A stretch of 64,000 bases of DNA from a virus (taxonomy: Duplodnaviria > Caudoviricetes), in the IMG/VR virus record IMGVR_UViG_3300031857_000007; one strand, 5' to 3'. Shown here one piece after another: positions 14,208 through 51,853 of the stretch. The notes under the pieces are model-generated. The model searched no databases. It was given only the letters and a program-made list of their open reading frames with translations, and had not been told where the DNA came from. How positions within the stretch are numbered: the first letter of the stretch is position 1; the number at the start of each line of letters is the position of its first letter. The position numbers and the translations under genes were made by a program.

Positions 14208-14215
14208 TATTTATA
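14208..14215 (-). promoter_or_regulatory. T4-type late promoter TATAAATA for gp22-gp23
   Basis: Exact consensus in the intergenic gap. Confidence 0.85.
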
Positions 14216-15678: not shown

Positions 15679-15686
15679 TATTTATA
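15679..15686 (-). promoter_or_regulatory. Late promoter TATAAATA
   Basis: Exact consensus 25 bp upstream of the ATG at 15654. Confidence 0.8.
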
Positions 15687-24003: not shown

Positions 24004-24011
24004 TATTTATA
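24004..24011 (-). promoter_or_regulatory. Late promoter TATAAATA
   Basis: Exact consensus 22 bp upstream of the ATG at 23982. Confidence 0.85.
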
Positions 24012-45987: not shown

Positions 45988-45995
45988 TATTTATA
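45988..45995 (-). promoter_or_regulatory. Late promoter TATAAATA for gp15-gp16
   Basis: Exact consensus in the intergenic gap. Confidence 0.8.
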
Positions 45996-47399: not shown

Positions 47400-48239
47400 T
47401 TAACCTACCATATCTAAAGGAGGTAATTCGTATGTACTTGACATTTTATCCATTAGAACATCAATCTCTCTCTGAGCGTCGTCATATATCTGCCTACCAT
47501 TCAATTCTACTCCACCTGGCAATTTAACACCTTGGAACTTAATCAAATTCTGCCCCCACTGCTTTTTAATTAATGAAGTCAAATATGGTTTGAGGAAAGA
47601 ATCATTCCAAACCCTACTATAATCGTTAGGATCTAGTGTGGTGTAACAATCAATAACAAAAAATGTATCTGGACTAACACTTGACCAATCTATATCCAAA
47701 TATAATCTGTCTTGTCTTTTATTAAATCTTATCTGTTTTTGAGTTGTCAATAACCAATTCAAATCTTCAAGATAAGTTTTGACCATTGCATAACTCAAAA
47801 GTTCTGTTGTTCCCCAATAATAAATATCATTTAAAAATAATTGATATTTAACACTAAACATATTGTGGGTTATAGTGTTGGCACCGTCAAAATGGAAAAT
47901 TTTATTGACACCTATTACAGACGGAGGAATTTGTAAATAATTGCTATTTTCATAATAAGTAAATGTCGTTGCAGTACCAACTATATTTGTTGTTGCACTT
48001 GTACTTGCAACTCCAACACCACCAACTTTTGCTCTTCCTCGATCAATATCATTTTGATTGACTTTATATTTAAAAAACGTAGGATAAACGCCGTCAAAAT
48101 GTCTTTCTTGGAAAAACTGTATCGCATCATCTACTAGGTCTTCAATTTGTTCATCCGCAACGTTAATTTCCAAAACAGGATAACCTAGTTTTCTCTTGCA
48201 ATAATCAATTAATTCTTGTCTGCTGGTTGGTTGTGCCAT
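47400..48239 (-). CDS. gp13: Neck protein gp13
   Basis: SRQELIDYCKRKLGYPVLEINV...KKQWGQNLIKFQGVKLPGGVELNG. Confidence 0.95.
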   Translation of the reverse strand: MAQPTSRQELIDYCKRKLGYPVLEINVADEQIEDLVDDAIQFFQERHFDGVYPTFFKYKVNQNDIDRGRAKVGGVGVASTSATTNIVGTATTFTYYENSNYLQIPPSVIGVNKIFHFDGANTITHNMFSVKYQLFLNDIYYWGTTELLSYAMVKTYLEDLNWLLTTQKQIRFNKRQDRLYLDIDWSSVSPDTFFVIDCYTTLDPNDYSRVWNDSFLKPYLTSLIKKQWGQNLIKFQGVKLPGGVELNGRQIYDDAQREIDVLMDKMSSTYELPPLDMVG

Positions 48240-48242
48240 TTT

Positions 48243-48407
48243 CTATAAGTTACAAACGACCTCTTGTTGTTTTAGATATAATTTTAAATAGCACTTAAGC
48301 ATTAATTTTACTTTTTCAATATCCTCTATACTATCTATCTCTCTACACATTTTCTCATATTCAAACAACTTGGTAATATTTTCTAATTCAATTGTACTAG
48401 GATCCAT
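48243..48407 (-). CDS. nblA: NblA-like phycobilisome degradation adaptor (54 aa)
   Basis: Not in the ORF track. My translation: MDPSTIELENITKLFEYEKMCREIDSIEDIEKVKLMLKCYLKLYLKQQEVVCNL*. It fills the gap between the 74-aa ORF and gp13; size and residue pattern match NblA by eye. The confidence reflects the functional call; the ORF itself is more secure. Confidence 0.62.
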   Translation of the reverse strand: MDPSTIELENITKLFEYEKMCREIDSIEDIEKVKLMLKCYLKLYLKQQEVVCNL

Positions 48408-48621
48408 TTAAAAATCTCCTTAATAAACCTTTAATTTCTTCAAGATCTGTTTTTATAGAATTGACATCCTCCTCAAGATTTTTTATTTTTTGTGATTCTA
48501 ACTCTTTTAATGCTTTTTGTTGCAAATAAGTATGATATTCGGAAATATTTGTATTTAGAATAGCGCCACTATTTTCATCTCTCACATAACTTGCATTTTC
48601 TTTTACTTTTATGTGCGTCAT
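48397..48621 (-). CDS. Small hypothetical protein with C-terminal coiled coil (74 aa)
   Basis: YVRDENSGAILN...IKNLEEDVNSIKTDLEEIKGLL. Confidence 0.75.
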   Translation of the reverse strand: MTHIKVKENASYVRDENSGAILNTNISEYHTYLQQKALKELESQKIKNLEEDVNSIKTDLEEIKGLLRRFLNGS

Positions 48622-48623
48622 AA

Positions 48624-51128
48624 TTAGGCAAGTGCAATAACTCTTAATTGTCTAAATCTTGGAGGGTATGTTTGATTTGTTGAAGTTCCTATTAACTTAA
48701 CACTAAAATATCTAAATGCCGGTAATTGGTCTATAGTAAATTCATGCTCAATAAATTCAAGTTGATTGGCAAAAAATCCTCTTTTAGTGCTTTTTGGTCT
48801 TTTTCTGTCCGGTCTTCCACTATTTTTTGATGTATCGACAACTTTTTTGATAGTTTCTGGACTTGGAGAAATTGAAGTTTCTCCGACTATTGATAGATTG
48901 TCATATCCTGGGAATGGATAATAAATCAGTTCTTCTTTTGGATCGTTAGCAATTGCAAATAAAGCCCTTATATCACTATCCACATTTACATATGCATTTA
49001 CATATAATTTAATGGAAGTTGCTGGAGTTTCTAGTGAAATTGGTTTCGTTGCATATACAAATGCGGTTGGATCATCTTTAAGAGTAGACACTCTCTCATC
49101 TTCTACATAATCTTCAATGACATTATTAATTCTATTAGACGTTAAAATCATACCAGATCTATGAAGATCTATAACTGGAGAAATATAAGTATTTGCTGTC
49201 AATAGTCTCATATTTAAAGTAAATGATTTTTTGCCTGGCAGTGTAGACAGTTTACTATTTTCATTTACTTTAGAGCATATTAATCTTGGCGAATTTAAAT
49301 AATTGTTCGCATTTAAATTAATTTCTTCAAAACCCTGATCTGAGAAAGACTCTTCATTTCCGCTTACACTTGTTCCACTAACAGTTCTTATTGAAGCATT
49401 TATTTTAGTTCCATTAAGAGTTAATGTTTCGATATTTGGTCTAATAATTTCATATTGTATATTTTGTGATGCATTAACTCTAGATCCACCTGCAGATTTT
49501 GTTTCATTCAAATATAACTTAGGAAAACTTGCTCCTGTAGATCTATCAATGCCATTAGAACTAGTATCTATTTTTATATGATAATGATCAAGTCCTATAG
49601 ATTCACTAACAGTAGAGTCGCCAAGACTATGATCTTTATTAATCCTCCTCAATGAAACTGATCCAAGTTCATATTTGTATATTTGAGTTCCTGTTGTATA
49701 AGAAGACGCAACGGTTTGGTCAACGGATCTTGTTATTCCAGTTAAAGCGCCAGTAGAAGTTCCTGAGTATGAAATAATTTCATCTCCAATTCTTGCGTAT
49801 CCTAAATTGGATGTTCCAACTCCAACATTTTCAAATGTACCAAATACTGATTCATCTTCGACTAAGATATCTGCAGTTGAAGATAGATCATAATTTGCCA
49901 TTAATTTTGACGGAATTGTATCTGGCAAAACATTTGAAATCGAAACAGTATTTGTAGGTGAGTGCATTCCATGATTTTTGTGATTTACTTTAATATGTAA
50001 ACCATCACTTTGAAGTTCGATTGTACTTGCAAGAACGTTAGATCCCGTTGCCTTTAGATCCGTAGTTATTCCAGAATTATTTACATACTGCAAAGTATTT
50101 CCTACACCAGTCAAAAATTCTCCTTGAACCTGGTCTACGATAAGTTCATTAATTCCTGATAGAGAACTTACCGATAATCTAATATTTCTTCCTAATGTAT
50201 CATTTCCAATTTGATTTGCGGTTAGGATATCACCAACAATATATCCTGTTCCGCCAGATTGAATTGTTGCAGCAACAGCAACACCATTAGATATATGAAT
50301 ATTTGCTGTCGCATTTTTGCCGGTACCAGTCACACTAGTTAAAGCTACTCCAGCAAAAGTTCTATTTCCCGAAGACGGTGTATATCCAATTCCAGCATTT
50401 ACAATTGTTAAATTTCCACTGCAAGATCCTGCATATCCAACATAATTAGCAGTTACACTAGAATTTCTTTGGACAATTGTATTTCCTAGTGTTGGTAGAT
50501 CACTTGTCGATAAAGTTGTCCCCAATCCAACTTTAACTTTCCTCGAATTTAAAAATAGTGGTCTTTTTACTAATCTTGCTACTTCTCCATTTCCTGTAGA
50601 TAAATCTGGATTGTAAAAATTTACATCTCCAATTACACCAAAACTAGCTCTATAAAGTTTGAACTTTAAATCGTCAAAATCACTTGGATTCCAAGTTATT
50701 CCATTTTGTGATTTAAAAATAGAACCAGAAAGAGGTTGTTTTGTTACTACAATTTGTTTAGATTCTAGTTGAGTTTGTGACTCGGTATCAATCTCTCCCA
50801 ATCTAGATAACCAGACTAGATACTCACTTGAGTTTGATAACAAACATATACAATGAAATTCTGATCCAGATAGATAAATCGGTGACTTGAATGTTACTCG
50901 CGTGGCCACTGATCCATCGTCGGATACATTTACATCTTTAGGATCTACTACAATCTCACTAAATGGATATACTTTATTCGATGGAAACCCCAAATTCATT
51001 GGTCTCAATTGAACCGTTACTGGAAGTTCCGGATCTTTGGAGAAAAAATAAAGATCAACAGAAGTTACAAATATTCCACTCTTTGGCTCTACATAAAAAG
51101 ATTGTGCTAATGGATCTACTAGTTTCAT
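48624..51128 (-). CDS. Virion structural protein, C-terminal part of a DUF4815-like family (834 aa)
   Basis: Starts MKLVDPLAQSF...TSVDLYF...LPVTVQLR, a motif I recognise as internal in full-length homologues; ends PPRFRQLRVIALA. Confidence 0.75.
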   Translation of the reverse strand: MKLVDPLAQSFYVEPKSGIFVTSVDLYFFSKDPELPVTVQLRPMNLGFPSNKVYPFSEIVVDPKDVNVSDDGSVATRVTFKSPIYLSGSEFHCICLLSNSSEYLVWLSRLGEIDTESQTQLESKQIVVTKQPLSGSIFKSQNGITWNPSDFDDLKFKLYRASFGVIGDVNFYNPDLSTGNGEVARLVKRPLFLNSRKVKVGLGTTLSTSDLPTLGNTIVQRNSSVTANYVGYAGSCSGNLTIVNAGIGYTPSSGNRTFAGVALTSVTGTGKNATANIHISNGVAVAATIQSGGTGYIVGDILTANQIGNDTLGRNIRLSVSSLSGINELIVDQVQGEFLTGVGNTLQYVNNSGITTDLKATGSNVLASTIELQSDGLHIKVNHKNHGMHSPTNTVSISNVLPDTIPSKLMANYDLSSTADILVEDESVFGTFENVGVGTSNLGYARIGDEIISYSGTSTGALTGITRSVDQTVASSYTTGTQIYKYELGSVSLRRINKDHSLGDSTVSESIGLDHYHIKIDTSSNGIDRSTGASFPKLYLNETKSAGGSRVNASQNIQYEIIRPNIETLTLNGTKINASIRTVSGTSVSGNEESFSDQGFEEINLNANNYLNSPRLICSKVNENSKLSTLPGKKSFTLNMRLLTANTYISPVIDLHRSGMILTSNRINNVIEDYVEDERVSTLKDDPTAFVYATKPISLETPATSIKLYVNAYVNVDSDIRALFAIANDPKEELIYYPFPGYDNLSIVGETSISPSPETIKKVVDTSKNSGRPDRKRPKSTKRGFFANQLEFIEHEFTIDQLPAFRYFSVKLIGTSTNQTYPPRFRQLRVIALA

Positions 51129-51170: not shown

Positions 51171-51178
51171 TATTTATT
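51171..51178 (-). promoter_or_regulatory. Late promoter variant AATAAATA for the 834-aa gene
   Basis: Intergenic, 43 bp upstream of the ATG at 51128. Confidence 0.6.
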
Positions 51179-51185
51179 TTTCTAG

Positions 51186-51587
51186 TTAAATAAAATTTTC
51201 AGCATTTTCTTCTCCATAATTTAAAGTCAATTCCTCACCAGCATCAATATCCCTAATAGCATAATGCCTCATTACTTCATTTACTTTATCTATTTCATAA
51301 TCTACATTTGGATCAAAACTATGATTATACAATCCACAAAAACCCATTCCTATAATACTAAATTCATTATCTAAATTGTAACTATAACTTACACAAGAAG
51401 GAGCATTATTTAATTCTTCTAAAGGTACTTTAAAGTAAGGAAATTCCTCTAAAATTTCATATTTTTTTATTGAATCTTTTGCAAAAACTCCCCATCTATG
51501 TATATTTGATCTTTGGACTATCATTTTTTCCGAAAATATCAAATCATTTAAATGCATTGACTTGAAAGACTCAACATTTCTTCTCAT
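51186..51587 (-). CDS. SET-domain methyltransferase (minimal, 133 aa)
   Basis: SNIHRWGVFAKDSIKKYEILEE, YNHSFDPN and AIRDIDAGEELTLNYG are the canonical SET motifs. Confidence 0.9.
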   Translation of the reverse strand: MRRNVESFKSMHLNDLIFSEKMIVQRSNIHRWGVFAKDSIKKYEILEEFPYFKVPLEELNNAPSCVSYSYNLDNEFSIIGMGFCGLYNHSFDPNVDYEIDKVNEVMRHYAIRDIDAGEELTLNYGEENAENFI

Positions 51588-51853
51588 ATAGTTTGACCAA
51601 TAATTTTTTTTAATGAATCCATCTCTTGCTTCATTTCCTTTAATGCTTCAATGATAACAGGAATTAGTTGTTTGTAATCAACAGCAAGATATCCATTATC
51701 TTGCATTTCGACCATTTCAGGAAATTCTTTTTGGACTTCTTGTGCTATAACTCCATAAGAATTTCCTGTCACACCGGTTATTTCTTTCATTTTATTATTC
51801 CACTCATAATATTTTCCATTTAATCTTGTTATTTTATCAAGATACAATCCCAT
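51584..51853 (-). CDS. Stand-alone C-terminal part of a peptidase S74 chaperone domain
   Basis: LDKITRLNGKYYEW...YGVIAQEVQKEFPEMV...LAVDYKQLIPVIIEALKE plus coiled coil; lacks the S-D-x-x-x-K start. Confidence 0.88.
   Translation of the reverse strand: MGLYLDKITRLNGKYYEWNNKMKEITGVTGNSYGVIAQEVQKEFPEMVEMQDNGYLAVDYKQLIPVIIEALKEMKQEMDSLKKIIGQTI

What the first reader, a model, noticed from the sequence alone, without database searches (positions are those of the whole stretch)
48243..48407. Hidden NblA-like gene inside the neck/baseplate operon
Seen: a 54-aa ORF below the track's size cut-off overlaps the upstream stop and ends 3 bp before gp13. Its pattern EL...FEYEKxxRxIDxxxDxExxxxxxKxxLxxYxxQ matches my recollection of picocyanobacterial and viral NblA. 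Known: NblA targets phycobilisomes for Clp proteolysis and is carried by some cyanophages. Inference: a late-expressed antenna-dismantling factor wired into the structural operon; if real, it also points to a phycobilisome-bearing host.
Basis: partly seen in the sequence, partly recalled or inferred. Interest (0 to 1): 0.72.

Follow-up and report, generated by a model that had tools for sequence, protein, structure and literature searches.

The report
NblA-like gene beside phage neck genes
A real, conserved 54-residue gene just upstream of the neck gene gp13 of an uncultured freshwater T4-like cyanophage belongs to a cyanomyovirus family that the literature already predicts to be a distant relative of NblA, the adaptor that sends the cyanobacterial light-harvesting antenna to the Clp protease; nobody has yet tested its activity.

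Summary
The ORF is real and lies at 48243-48407 on the minus strand. It has an AAGGAG ribosome-binding site, overlaps the upstream 74-aa virion-protein gene by 11 nt and ends 3 nt before gp13. It is under purifying selection (dN/dS 0.15-0.20) and matches phrog_27081 (E 1e-22).

Orthologues sit at the same place in Synechococcus phages S-SM2, Bellamy and S-SRM01 and in uncultured relatives. Wang et al. 2022 (PMC9602691) already called S-SM2 gp101, Bellamy gp115 and S-SCSM1 ORF237 distant NblA homologues by HHpred (95-97%).

Tests run here:
- Pfam NblA (PF04485) does not match the ORF.
- Profile-profile similarity to classical NblA is weak (P 1.3e-3), but well above shuffled controls.
- AlphaFold models of the ORF and of a 40%-identical relative are helix-loop-helix hairpins. 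In all-against-48,161-chain searches their two best matches are NblA crystal structures; the third NblA representative ranks 6-7.
- A homodimer is predicted.

Verdict: most likely a divergent NblA-type proteolysis adaptor, probably co-transcribed with late structural genes. Function, timing and substrate are untested. It is a new member of a known, only computationally predicted group, so interest is modest.

The parts
48243..48407 (-). 54-aa NblA-like ORF (member of phrog_27081; helix-loop-helix, predicted homodimer)
48416..48421 (-). Shine-Dalgarno AAGGAG, 8 nt upstream of the ATG, lying inside the 3' end of the upstream gene
   Evidence: read directly from the sequence
48397..48621 (-). 74-aa virion structural protein gene (phrog_473, E 2e-21). 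Its last 11 nt overlap the NblA-like ORF, which suggests translational coupling.
   Evidence: the same pairing is seen in S-SM2, Bellamy, S-SRM01, L026 and L028
47400..48239 (-). gp13 neck protein / head-tail adaptor Ad2; starts 3 nt after the ORF's stop
48624..51128 (-). 834-aa C-terminal VrlC/DUF4815-like virion protein (phrog_358, E 1.5e-185); first gene of the presumed transcription unit
51171..51178 (-). AATAAATA, a T4-type late-promoter-like motif 49 nt upstream of the 834-aa gene. It is the nearest such motif upstream of the ORF. The next one (TATAAATA, 45988-45995) precedes gp15.
   Evidence: ATAAATA occurs 22 times on the gene strand against 3 on the other. No terminator-like site lies between 51128 and 47400 on the minus strand. 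Function is inferred, not shown.

Best explanation
The ORF encodes a divergent member of the NblA family, in the subgroup carried by T4-like cyanomyoviruses (S-SM2 gp101, Bellamy gp115, S-SCSM1 ORF237, S-TIM5 gp189). The protein folds as a short helix (residues 11-25), a loop and a long helix (30-53), and pairs into a symmetric dimer. By analogy with characterised NblAs, the dimer would bridge host phycobiliproteins to the host ClpC chaperone, so that ClpC-ClpP degrades the phycobilisome. That shuts down light harvesting and frees amino acids. L54, the last residue, superposes on Nostoc NblA L51, one of two positions reported to mediate phycobiliprotein binding. In this lineage the gene is wedged between a virion-protein gene and gp13, overlaps the former and has its own strong ribosome-binding site. 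It is therefore probably made from the late structural transcript, when demand for amino acids for virion proteins peaks. Shown here: a real gene under purifying selection, family membership, conserved synteny, an NblA-like predicted fold and a predicted dimer. Inferred: homology-based function, substrate and partner, and late timing.
For: (1) Direct sequence relatives. tblastn gives 61% identity to S-SCSM1 ORF237 (annotated nblA) and 50% to S-TIM5 gp189. Syntenic orthologues occur in S-SRM01, S-SM2 and Bellamy. The literature reports HHpred 95-97% to solved NblAs for exactly these proteins.
(2) Fold. The AF2 model has pLDDT 85 and is helix-loop-helix. In the VIA-align search against 48,161 chains, rank 1 is 2q8v_A (Z 5.9, rmsd 2.3, 48 of 53 residues), rank 2 is 1ojh_A (Z 5.8, rmsd 1.8, 47 of 52) and rank 7 is 3cs5_A (Z 4.8, rmsd 1.0); all three are NblA. 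This was replicated with a model of a roughly 40%-identical relative, P0440: 1ojh_A rank 1 (Z 5.6, rmsd 1.4, 48 of 52), 2q8v_A rank 2 and 3cs5_A rank 6.
(3) Sequence signal above null. hhalign of the family (271 sequences) against 120 PF04485-annotated NblAs scores 21.6 (P 1.3e-3). The reversed alignment scores 11.3, and 60 column shuffles give mean 9.1, sd 2.2, max 15.7. A classical-NblA HMM scores 12 of 320 family members at 8 bits or more (max 15.2, aligning IELeSISKMFEYEKMARTIDELSENQAKDF to ieL.sLEqefsLrtfadqvqqmsreQAqef), against 0 of 640 decoys.
(4) Dimer. Complex prediction gives score 0.55, with the best of 3 controls at 0.01. That mark was reached by 20 of 30 proteins solved as pairs of one chain and 1 of 23 solved as single chains. 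The runs agree in at least 92% of contacts and partner pLDDT is at least 71. NblA dimers have been solved, so this may reflect likeness only. A natural 134-aa tandem of two such domains exists (P0053).
(5) L54 is L, I, F or M in 250 of 271 family members.
(6) Distribution. Every isolate hit is a cyanophage isolated on Synechococcus. The gene sits in different genome modules in different lineages: the replication module in L022, between gp16 and gp17 in S-SCSM2R, and small-ORF islands in S-TIM5 and S-SKS1. That is how an auxiliary gene behaves, not a fixed structural part.
(7) The phage DNA is found in freshwater and lake metagenomes, where picocyanobacteria carry phycobilisomes (general knowledge).
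Against: Pfam PF04485 gives no hit to the ORF or to any frame of the 94.9-kb record, and the ORF scores -0.1 bits against my classical-NblA HMM. Only 2-3 relatives reach E about 0.006, below the gathering score. The hhalign probability is only 18.7%, and there is no alignment to T7-like cyanophage NblAs, including the experimentally validated S-TIP37 protein. A helical hairpin is a simple, common fold, and Z below 6 is within the range the tool warns can mean only a common arrangement. The family's strongest motif (K42-L-Y-x-K-Q-Q-E49) has no counterpart in classical NblA. The second reported phycobiliprotein-binding position (Nostoc K53) lies beyond the C-terminus. No member of this myovirus subgroup has been tested experimentally in the papers I read.
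Confidence: 0.62

Rival explanations
1. It is an NblA-derived adaptor that has been retargeted. It still recruits the host Clp machinery, but to substrates other than, or in addition to, phycobilisome proteins, using the family-specific KLYxKQQE surface.
For: The strongly conserved K42, L43, Y44, K46, Q47, Q48 and E49 (each at least 221 of 271) are absent from classical NblA. The Nostoc K53 equivalent is missing. The S-TIP37 NblA study reports NblA-dependent cleavage of many non-phycobilisome proteins and expects other targets in Prochlorococcus phages (PMC12695635).
Against: All isolates with this family were isolated on phycobilisome-bearing Synechococcus. The L51-equivalent hydrophobic residue is conserved. 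There is no direct evidence for any substrate.
Confidence: 0.17
2. It is a small helical protein of virion morphogenesis, for example a chaperone or minor component acting with the 74-aa virion protein, VrlC or the neck. Its likeness to NblA would then be convergence on a simple helix-hairpin dimer.
For: It is embedded in and overlaps structural genes, in a position conserved across S-SM2, Bellamy, S-SRM01 and uncultured relatives. In S-SCSM2R it lies between the two terminase genes. The structural Z-scores are low in absolute terms and the sequence evidence is sub-significant.
Against: The same family also sits outside structural modules: in the replication and auxiliary-gene region of L022-L024, in small-ORF islands in S-TIM5 and S-SKS1, and next to a helicase in S-SCSM1. 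tblastn finds it only in cyanophages, although gp13-gp15 modules occur in about 1900 T4-like phage records. S-SCSM1 ORF237 carries no 'virion protein' note, unlike its neighbours, which come from that paper's virion proteome. All three NblA representatives rank in the top 7 of 48,161 chains, twice over, which is hard to attribute to chance.
Confidence: 0.12
3. It is a spurious ORF, or merely a translational-coupling spacer with no protein function.
For: It is very short and overlaps the upstream gene.
Against: dN/dS is 0.15-0.20. It has a strong ribosome-binding site. Hundreds of diverged homologues keep the frame and the motifs. The PHROG match is E 1e-22.
Confidence: 0.01

Closest known systems
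Cyanomyovirus 'nblA homologues' of Wang et al. 2022: S-SCSM1 ORF237 (QFG06501.1), S-SM2 gp101 (YP_004322257.1, T4-like gene cluster 1205), Bellamy gene 115 (YP_009791272.1), S-SKS1 YP_007674584.1, S-B43, S-B05; also S-TIM5 gp189 and S-SCSM2R ORF118
   Same: It is the same protein family (50-61% identity; phrog_27081) of the same size. In S-SM2, Bellamy and S-SRM01 the gene sits in the same slot: VrlC-like gene, then an approximately 70-aa virion protein gene, then this gene with a 11-14 nt overlap, then gp13.
   Different: This copy comes from an uncultured freshwater lineage (gp15 is at most 58% identical to any isolate). It lacks the 128-aa 'tail fibre assembly' gene that separates the ORF from gp13 in S-SM2, Bellamy and L028. 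In S-SCSM1, S-TIM5, S-SKS1 and S-SCSM2R the gene sits elsewhere in the genome. In the sources I read, none of these has been tested experimentally.
Classical cyanobacterial NblA (Pfam PF04485; structures 1OJH Nostoc PCC 7120, 2Q8V/2QDO T. vulcanus, 3CS5 S. elongatus)
   Same: It has the same length and the helix-loop-helix fold, superposing over 43-48 residues at 1.0-2.3 A. A homodimer is predicted. It shares the N-terminal P-x-IEL...F start, a hydrophobic-polar helix-2 cap (ID-SIED against VQ-MSxxQ) and a hydrophobic residue at the Nostoc L51 position. Some close relatives carry the same S-x-x-QAKDF segment as Nostoc NblA.
   Different: There is no significant HMM match. The LSLEQxF motif is replaced by IELEN..K.FEYEK, with two extra residues. 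A distinctive KLYxKQQE motif occupies helix 2. The protein ends before Nostoc K53 and lacks the C-terminal W-containing tail.
T7-like cyanophage NblA (S-TIP37; experimentally shown to drive phycobilisome degradation, Nature 2025, PMC12695635)
   Same: It is a small viral NblA-type gene that overlaps its neighbours and is carried by a picocyanobacterial phage. It also lacks the Lys at the K53 position (T66 in S-TIP37).
   Different: No detectable sequence similarity was found here. S-TIP37 NblA resembles classical NblA much more closely (hhalign P 1e-5). It lies in the DNA replication and metabolism cluster downstream of the exonuclease gene, not in a structural operon.

Membership tests
NblA (PF04485 / IPR007574) | Small protein (about 50-65 aa) built as helix-loop-helix | tested here: met
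   54 aa. The AF2 model has pLDDT 85 with helices 11-25 and 30-53. The relative P0440 has pLDDT 85.6 and the same hairpin.
NblA (PF04485 / IPR007574) | Fold superposes on solved NblA structures | tested here: met
   NblA chains rank 1, 2 and 7 of 48,161 (Z 5.9, 5.8, 4.8; rmsd 2.3, 1.8, 1.0; 48, 47, 43 residues aligned). For a second family member they rank 1, 2 and 6. The absolute Z values are low, as expected for a 54-residue hairpin.
NblA (PF04485 / IPR007574) | Forms a dimer (four-helix arrangement) | tested here: met
   This is a prediction only. The score is 0.55 against a best control of 0.01. The mark was reached by 20 of 30 known homodimers and 1 of 23 monomers. At least 92% of contacts are shared between runs and partner pLDDT is at least 71. 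The result may reflect likeness to solved NblA dimers. A natural tandem-domain protein, P0053, exists.
NblA (PF04485 / IPR007574) | Sequence match to the Pfam NblA model above its gathering score (25 bits) | tested here: not met
   There is no hit for the ORF at E<=10 and none in six frames of the whole 94.9-kb record. The best hit among 39 or 80 relatives is E 0.0063. Nadel et al. report that experimentally active marine viral NblAs also score poorly against PF04485 (10.1101/494369). This is therefore a detection limit rather than a structural criterion.
NblA (PF04485 / IPR007574) | Profile-profile similarity to bona fide NblA | tested here: inconclusive
   hhalign gives score 21.6, P 1.3e-3 and probability 18.7%, about 5.7 sd above column-shuffled controls. 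The literature reports HHpred at 95-97% for orthologues. I could not run HHpred with secondary-structure scoring.
NblA (PF04485 / IPR007574) | Residues reported to mediate phycobiliprotein binding (Nostoc L51 and K53) | tested here: inconclusive
   The structural and anchor-based alignments put L54 on L51, and this position is hydrophobic in 250 of 271 relatives. K53 has no counterpart because the protein ends first. The validated S-TIP37 NblA also lacks it (T66).
NblA (PF04485 / IPR007574) | Binds ClpC and phycobiliproteins; its expression causes phycobilisome loss (bleaching) | not testable with these tools
   This needs expression, pull-down and spectroscopy.
NblA (PF04485 / IPR007574) | Occurs in cyanobacteria, plastids or their viruses | tested here: met
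   All phage-isolate hits are cyanophages. The four hits in species genomes are mis-binned cyanophage contigs with the same synteny.
phrog_27081 / T4-like gene cluster 1205 (cyanomyovirus NblA-like proteins) | Full-length profile match and conserved neighbourhood | tested here: met
   E 1e-22 over residues 1-53 of a 59-position profile. Synteny is shared with S-SM2 gp101, Bellamy gp115, S-SRM01 gp198, L026 and L028.

The most novel reading that the evidence does not exclude
The cyanomyovirus NblA-like proteins may be a functionally distinct branch. Their invariant KLYxKQQE face, and their repeated placement inside late morphogenesis operons (before gp13 here; between gp16 and gp17 in S-SCSM2R), could mean that they deliver a different substrate set to the host Clp protease late in infection. 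Alternatively they could be packaged with the neighbouring virion protein and act on entry. Either way they would not be simple copies of host NblA.
Probability: 0.15. Interest if true: 0.6.

Novelty: new member of a known kind. Interest (0 to 1): 0.3.

Why it matters
Phycobilisomes can make up half of a cyanobacterium's soluble protein. A recent study showed that a T7-like cyanophage NblA depresses oceanic photosynthesis. T4-like cyanophages are at least as abundant, but their NblA-like genes are known only from remote-homology predictions. This ORF shows that the family extends to freshwater T4-like phages, is large (hundreds of 50%-identity clusters), is under selection, and has an NblA-type predicted fold and dimer. 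It also shows a recurring placement in late structural operons that has not been discussed. It offers a clear, cheap experimental target, but not a new principle.

Tried and rejected
- Foldseek against the PDB gave only 9 weak rows at E>6, none of them NblA. This was superseded by the exhaustive VIA-align search.
- The ESM-Atlas fold search returned only viral hypothetical hairpins and a T4 Y07B-domain cluster, with no NblA clusters.
- The Atlas feature search gave leads only: a viral cluster auto-named 'phycobilisome degradation protein family' at 0.88, and a cluster with PF04485 on 12% of members at 0.77.
- HMM profiles of the family against PDB sequences found no NblA at E<=10.
- hhalign of the family against single NblA sequences or a 5-sequence alignment was weak (E 0.003, probability about 10%).
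- hhalign against six T7-like cyanophage NblAs gave nothing.
- The genome-contig scan was limited to the exact motif KLY[LM]KQQE. It found only four loci, all phage contigs in MAGs. It cannot show that hosts lack homologues.
- I found no way to fetch picocyanobacterial NblA genes, so the reported clustering of this group with picocyanobacterial NblAs (PMC9602691) was not re-tested.
- No RNA holder was listed among the sequencing runs, and read laying was not used.
- Pfam scans of longer fused or tandem relatives (P0053, P0059, P0071, P0080, P0088) gave no informative domain.
- No supplementary files are held for the Nature 2025 paper.
- The sigma-70 promoter and terminator scan was no better than shuffles.

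Full report
**1. Observation**

The ORF lies on the minus strand at 48243..48407 and encodes 54 aa. Reading the minus strand shows the following:
- AAGGAG at 48421-48416, then 8 nt, then the ATG at 48407.
- The upstream 74-aa ORF ends with TAG at 48399-48397, so the two genes overlap by 11 nt.
- The ORF's own TAG is at 48245-48243, followed by 'aaa' and the ATG of the next gene at 48239.

That next gene is gp13 (phrog_211, E 1e-46; PF26809 on its orthologue). It is followed by gp14 (PF11649) and gp15 (PF16724). Upstream lie a 74-aa 'virion structural protein' gene (phrog_473) and an 834-aa VrlC-like C-terminal fragment (phrog_358). Every gene in the window is on the minus strand.

**2. Is it a gene?**

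Yes.
- It matches phrog_27081 at E 1e-22 over its full length.
- It has 52 close homologues in a 5.8-billion-protein collection.
- A family profile finds 230 representatives at E<=1e-3, 93 of them at E<=1e-10, among 1.84 billion 50%-identity cluster representatives.
- The same profile finds 2541 proteins at E<=1 in the 90%-identity collection.
- Against two relatives' DNA, dN/dS is 0.155 and 0.196. The neighbouring 74-aa gene gives 0.145 and gp13 gives 0.021.
- All other frames contain stops.
- The record holds a single copy.

**3. What phage, and where?**

The window is part of a 94.9-kb IMG/VR virus record, estimated 44% complete, with about 34% G+C. Its gp15 is at most 58% identical to any isolate. 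The nearest isolates are Synechococcus phages S-SM2, SynMITS9220M01, Bellamy, S-B43/S-B05 and S-SCSM1. Near-identical DNA occurs in freshwater and lake metagenomes from 15 studies. It is therefore an uncultured freshwater T4-like cyanomyovirus.

**4. Relatives and synteny**

tblastn against 50,697 phage records hits only cyanophages isolated on Synechococcus.

In S-SRM01 (freshwater), S-SM2, Bellamy and SynMITS9220M01 the homologue occupies the same slot. The order is a VrlC-like gene, then an approximately 70-aa virion protein gene, then this gene with a 14-nt overlap, sometimes followed by one or two small genes (a 128-130-aa gene in S-SM2, Bellamy and L028/L029; two genes in S-SRM01), then gp13. 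Uncultured relatives show the same order (L026-L029). So do four contigs mis-binned into non-cyanobacterial MAGs.

Elsewhere the family sits in quite different places:
- beside a helicase and 2OG-Fe(II) oxygenases in S-SCSM1;
- in small-ORF and tRNA islands in S-TIM5 and S-SKS1;
- between gp16 and gp17 in S-SCSM2R;
- in the gp45/gp44 replication module, next to NdhS and 2OG-oxygenase genes, in an abundant marine lineage (L022-L024).

A gene that hops between modules but stays within cyanophages behaves like an auxiliary gene, not like a fixed virion part.

**5. What the literature already says**

Wang et al. 2022 (PMC9602691) annotated S-SCSM1 ORF237 as nblA on the basis of HHpred (95.5% and 95% to Nostoc and S. 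elongatus NblA, E about 0.25; Table S2). Their Table S4 lists homologues with 96.4-97.3% HHpred probability to T. vulcanus NblA: S-B43, S-B05, S-SM2 YP_004322257.1, Bellamy YP_009791272.1 and S-SKS1 YP_007674584.1. The S-SM2 and Bellamy proteins are exactly the syntenic orthologues seen.

According to the same paper, Nadel et al. had predicted NblA in S-TIM5. S-SCSM2R ORF118 is also deposited as NblA. So an NblA-like gene before gp13 in T4-like cyanophages is already in the record as a computational prediction.

Experimental proof exists for other viral NblAs. These are freshwater Ma-LMM01-type and PaV-LD proteins, the metagenomic G1/G1b proteins, and the T7-like S-TIP37 protein (PMC12695635; 10.1101/494369). 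I found none for this myovirus subgroup.

**6. Independent tests here: sequence**

PF04485 does not hit the ORF or any frame of the record. Among relatives, 3 of 39 and 2 of 80 reach sub-threshold E-values, the best being 0.0063.

I collected 120 PF04485-annotated NblAs and six T7-like cyanophage NblAs, including S-TIP37.

hhalign of the family against classical NblA scores 21.6 (P 1.3e-3, probability 18.7%). It aligns the N-terminal helix and the loop (M-p--I-L-slsK-FeYEK-sReID to M-q-i-L-sLEQefsLRsfsDqvq). Controls are much lower: the reversed alignment scores 11.3, and 60 column shuffles give mean 9.1, sd 2.2, max 15.7.

A classical-NblA HMM scores 12 of 320 family members at 8 bits or more (top 15.2), against 0 of 640 reversed or shuffled decoys. 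The ORF itself scores -0.1 bits.

Family against T7-like NblA gave nothing, whereas classical against T7-like gave P 1e-5.

Overall, the sequence signal is real but weak, and undetectable for this ORF on its own. Nadel et al. note that active marine viral NblAs also score poorly against PF04485. The Nature paper adds that picocyanobacterial NblAs are 'substantially divergent' in sequence yet keep the dimeric architecture.

**7. Independent tests here: structure**

AlphaFold2 with 39 homologues gives pLDDT 85.3, with helices at 11-25 and 30-53. Foldseek found nothing.

The exhaustive VIA-align search of 48,161 representative chains placed NblA from T. vulcanus first (Z 5.9, rmsd 2.3, 48 of 53 residues) and NblA from Nostoc second (Z 5.8, rmsd 1.8, 47 of 52). 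NblA from S. elongatus came seventh (Z 4.8, rmsd 1.0, 43 of 48).

I repeated this with a model of a roughly 40%-identical relative from the replication-module lineage (P0440, pLDDT 85.6). NblA again ranked 1, 2 and 6, with Z 5.6, 5.5 and 4.6.

The Z-values are small, as they must be for about 50 residues, and the tool warns that such values can mean only a common arrangement. Even so, all three NblA representatives reach the top 7 of 48,161, each covering nearly its whole chain, in two independent models. That is strong evidence for the same fold.

Both structural alignments, and a sequence anchor in close relatives (S-x-x-QAKDF, shared with Nostoc NblA), place the ORF's last residue L54 on Nostoc L51. 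L51 is one of the two positions reported to mediate phycobiliprotein binding. Position 54 is L, I, F or M in 250 of 271 relatives. The second position, K53, lies beyond the C-terminus; the validated S-TIP37 protein has T there.

**8. Dimer**

Complex prediction with two copies gives score 0.55, with the best of 3 controls at 0.01. The mark was reached by 20 of 30 proteins solved as pairs of one chain and by 1 of 23 solved as single chains. The runs share at least 92% of contacts and partner pLDDT is at least 71. The interface is symmetric and centred on helix-2 residues 30, 33, 37, 40 and 44. NblA dimers have been solved, so this may show likeness rather than binding. A natural 134-aa protein carrying two such domains in tandem (P0053) fits a dimeric working unit.

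**9. Expression context**

There is no sigma-70-like promoter or terminator signal above background around the ORF. The T4 late-promoter octamer TATAAATA occurs four times in the window. All four are on the gene strand, each just upstream of a gene start, including one before gp15. The relaxed ATAAATA occurs 22 times on the gene strand against 3 on the other, and includes AATAAATA 49 nt before the 834-aa gene.

The simplest reading is a late transcript covering the 834-aa gene, the 74-aa gene, the NblA-like ORF, gp13 and gp14. The ORF would be translated from its own AAGGAG and possibly coupled to the 74-aa gene. This is inference; no RNA data were available.

**10. Interpretation**

The best explanation is a divergent NblA-type adaptor (confidence 0.62). 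It would dimerise, bind phycobiliproteins and ClpC, and trigger Clp-dependent antenna breakdown, here probably late in infection.

The rivals are:
- an NblA-derived adaptor with other substrates (0.17);
- a morphogenesis factor with a convergent fold (0.12);
- no function (0.01).

The host inference needs care. nblA genes also occur in phages of phycobilisome-less Prochlorococcus, so the gene alone does not diagnose the host. The freshwater habitat and the Synechococcus-only isolate distribution nevertheless fit a phycobilisome-bearing picocyanobacterium.

**11. Novelty**

This is a new member of a known, computationally predicted kind. Three things go modestly beyond the literature I could read: the freshwater lineage, the size and constraint of the family, and the recurrent placement within late morphogenesis operons. 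Searches agree with both.

Noticed in passing
L007, L008, L009, L010 (genome-contig loci): Contigs binned into MAGs labelled Crocinitomicaceae, Pirellulaceae, Methanobacteriota and Acetobacteraceae carry this gene. In the two I checked (L007, L009) it sits between a VrlC-like gene (phrog_358) and gp13 (phrog_211). They look like mis-binned T4-like cyanophage fragments.
   Followed up: partly
P0053 (134 aa): A natural protein holds two NblA-like domains in tandem, effectively a covalent 'dimer' of the family. Its genomic context was not examined.
   Followed up: no
P0071, P0080, P0088: In some relatives the NblA-like domain is fused, at the N- or the C-terminus, to an approximately 70-80-aa domain (motif ...VTFVGG.KEQ..WG...) with no Pfam match. 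This could be a real fusion or read-through of a neighbouring gene.
   Followed up: partly
window 45988-45995, 24004-24011, 15679-15686, 14208-14215 (minus strand): All four exact TATAAATA octamers in the window lie on the gene strand just upstream of gene starts. About 10 would be expected on both strands by chance. This is consistent with T4-type late promoters and counter-selection elsewhere.
   Followed up: partly
L022-L024 (marine metagenome contigs): In another cyanomyovirus lineage the NblA-like gene lies in the gp45/gp44 clamp-loader region, next to an NdhS-domain gene, a D12 methyltransferase and 2OG-Fe(II) oxygenases. That is an early or middle-module placement, in contrast to the late-module placement here.
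   Followed up: no
window 51186-51853 (minus strand): A 133-aa gene and an 89-aa gene sit between the 1984-aa and 834-aa virion genes. Earlier notes of this scan describe them as a SET-domain methyltransferase and a split S74 chaperone. I did not re-examine them.
   Followed up: no
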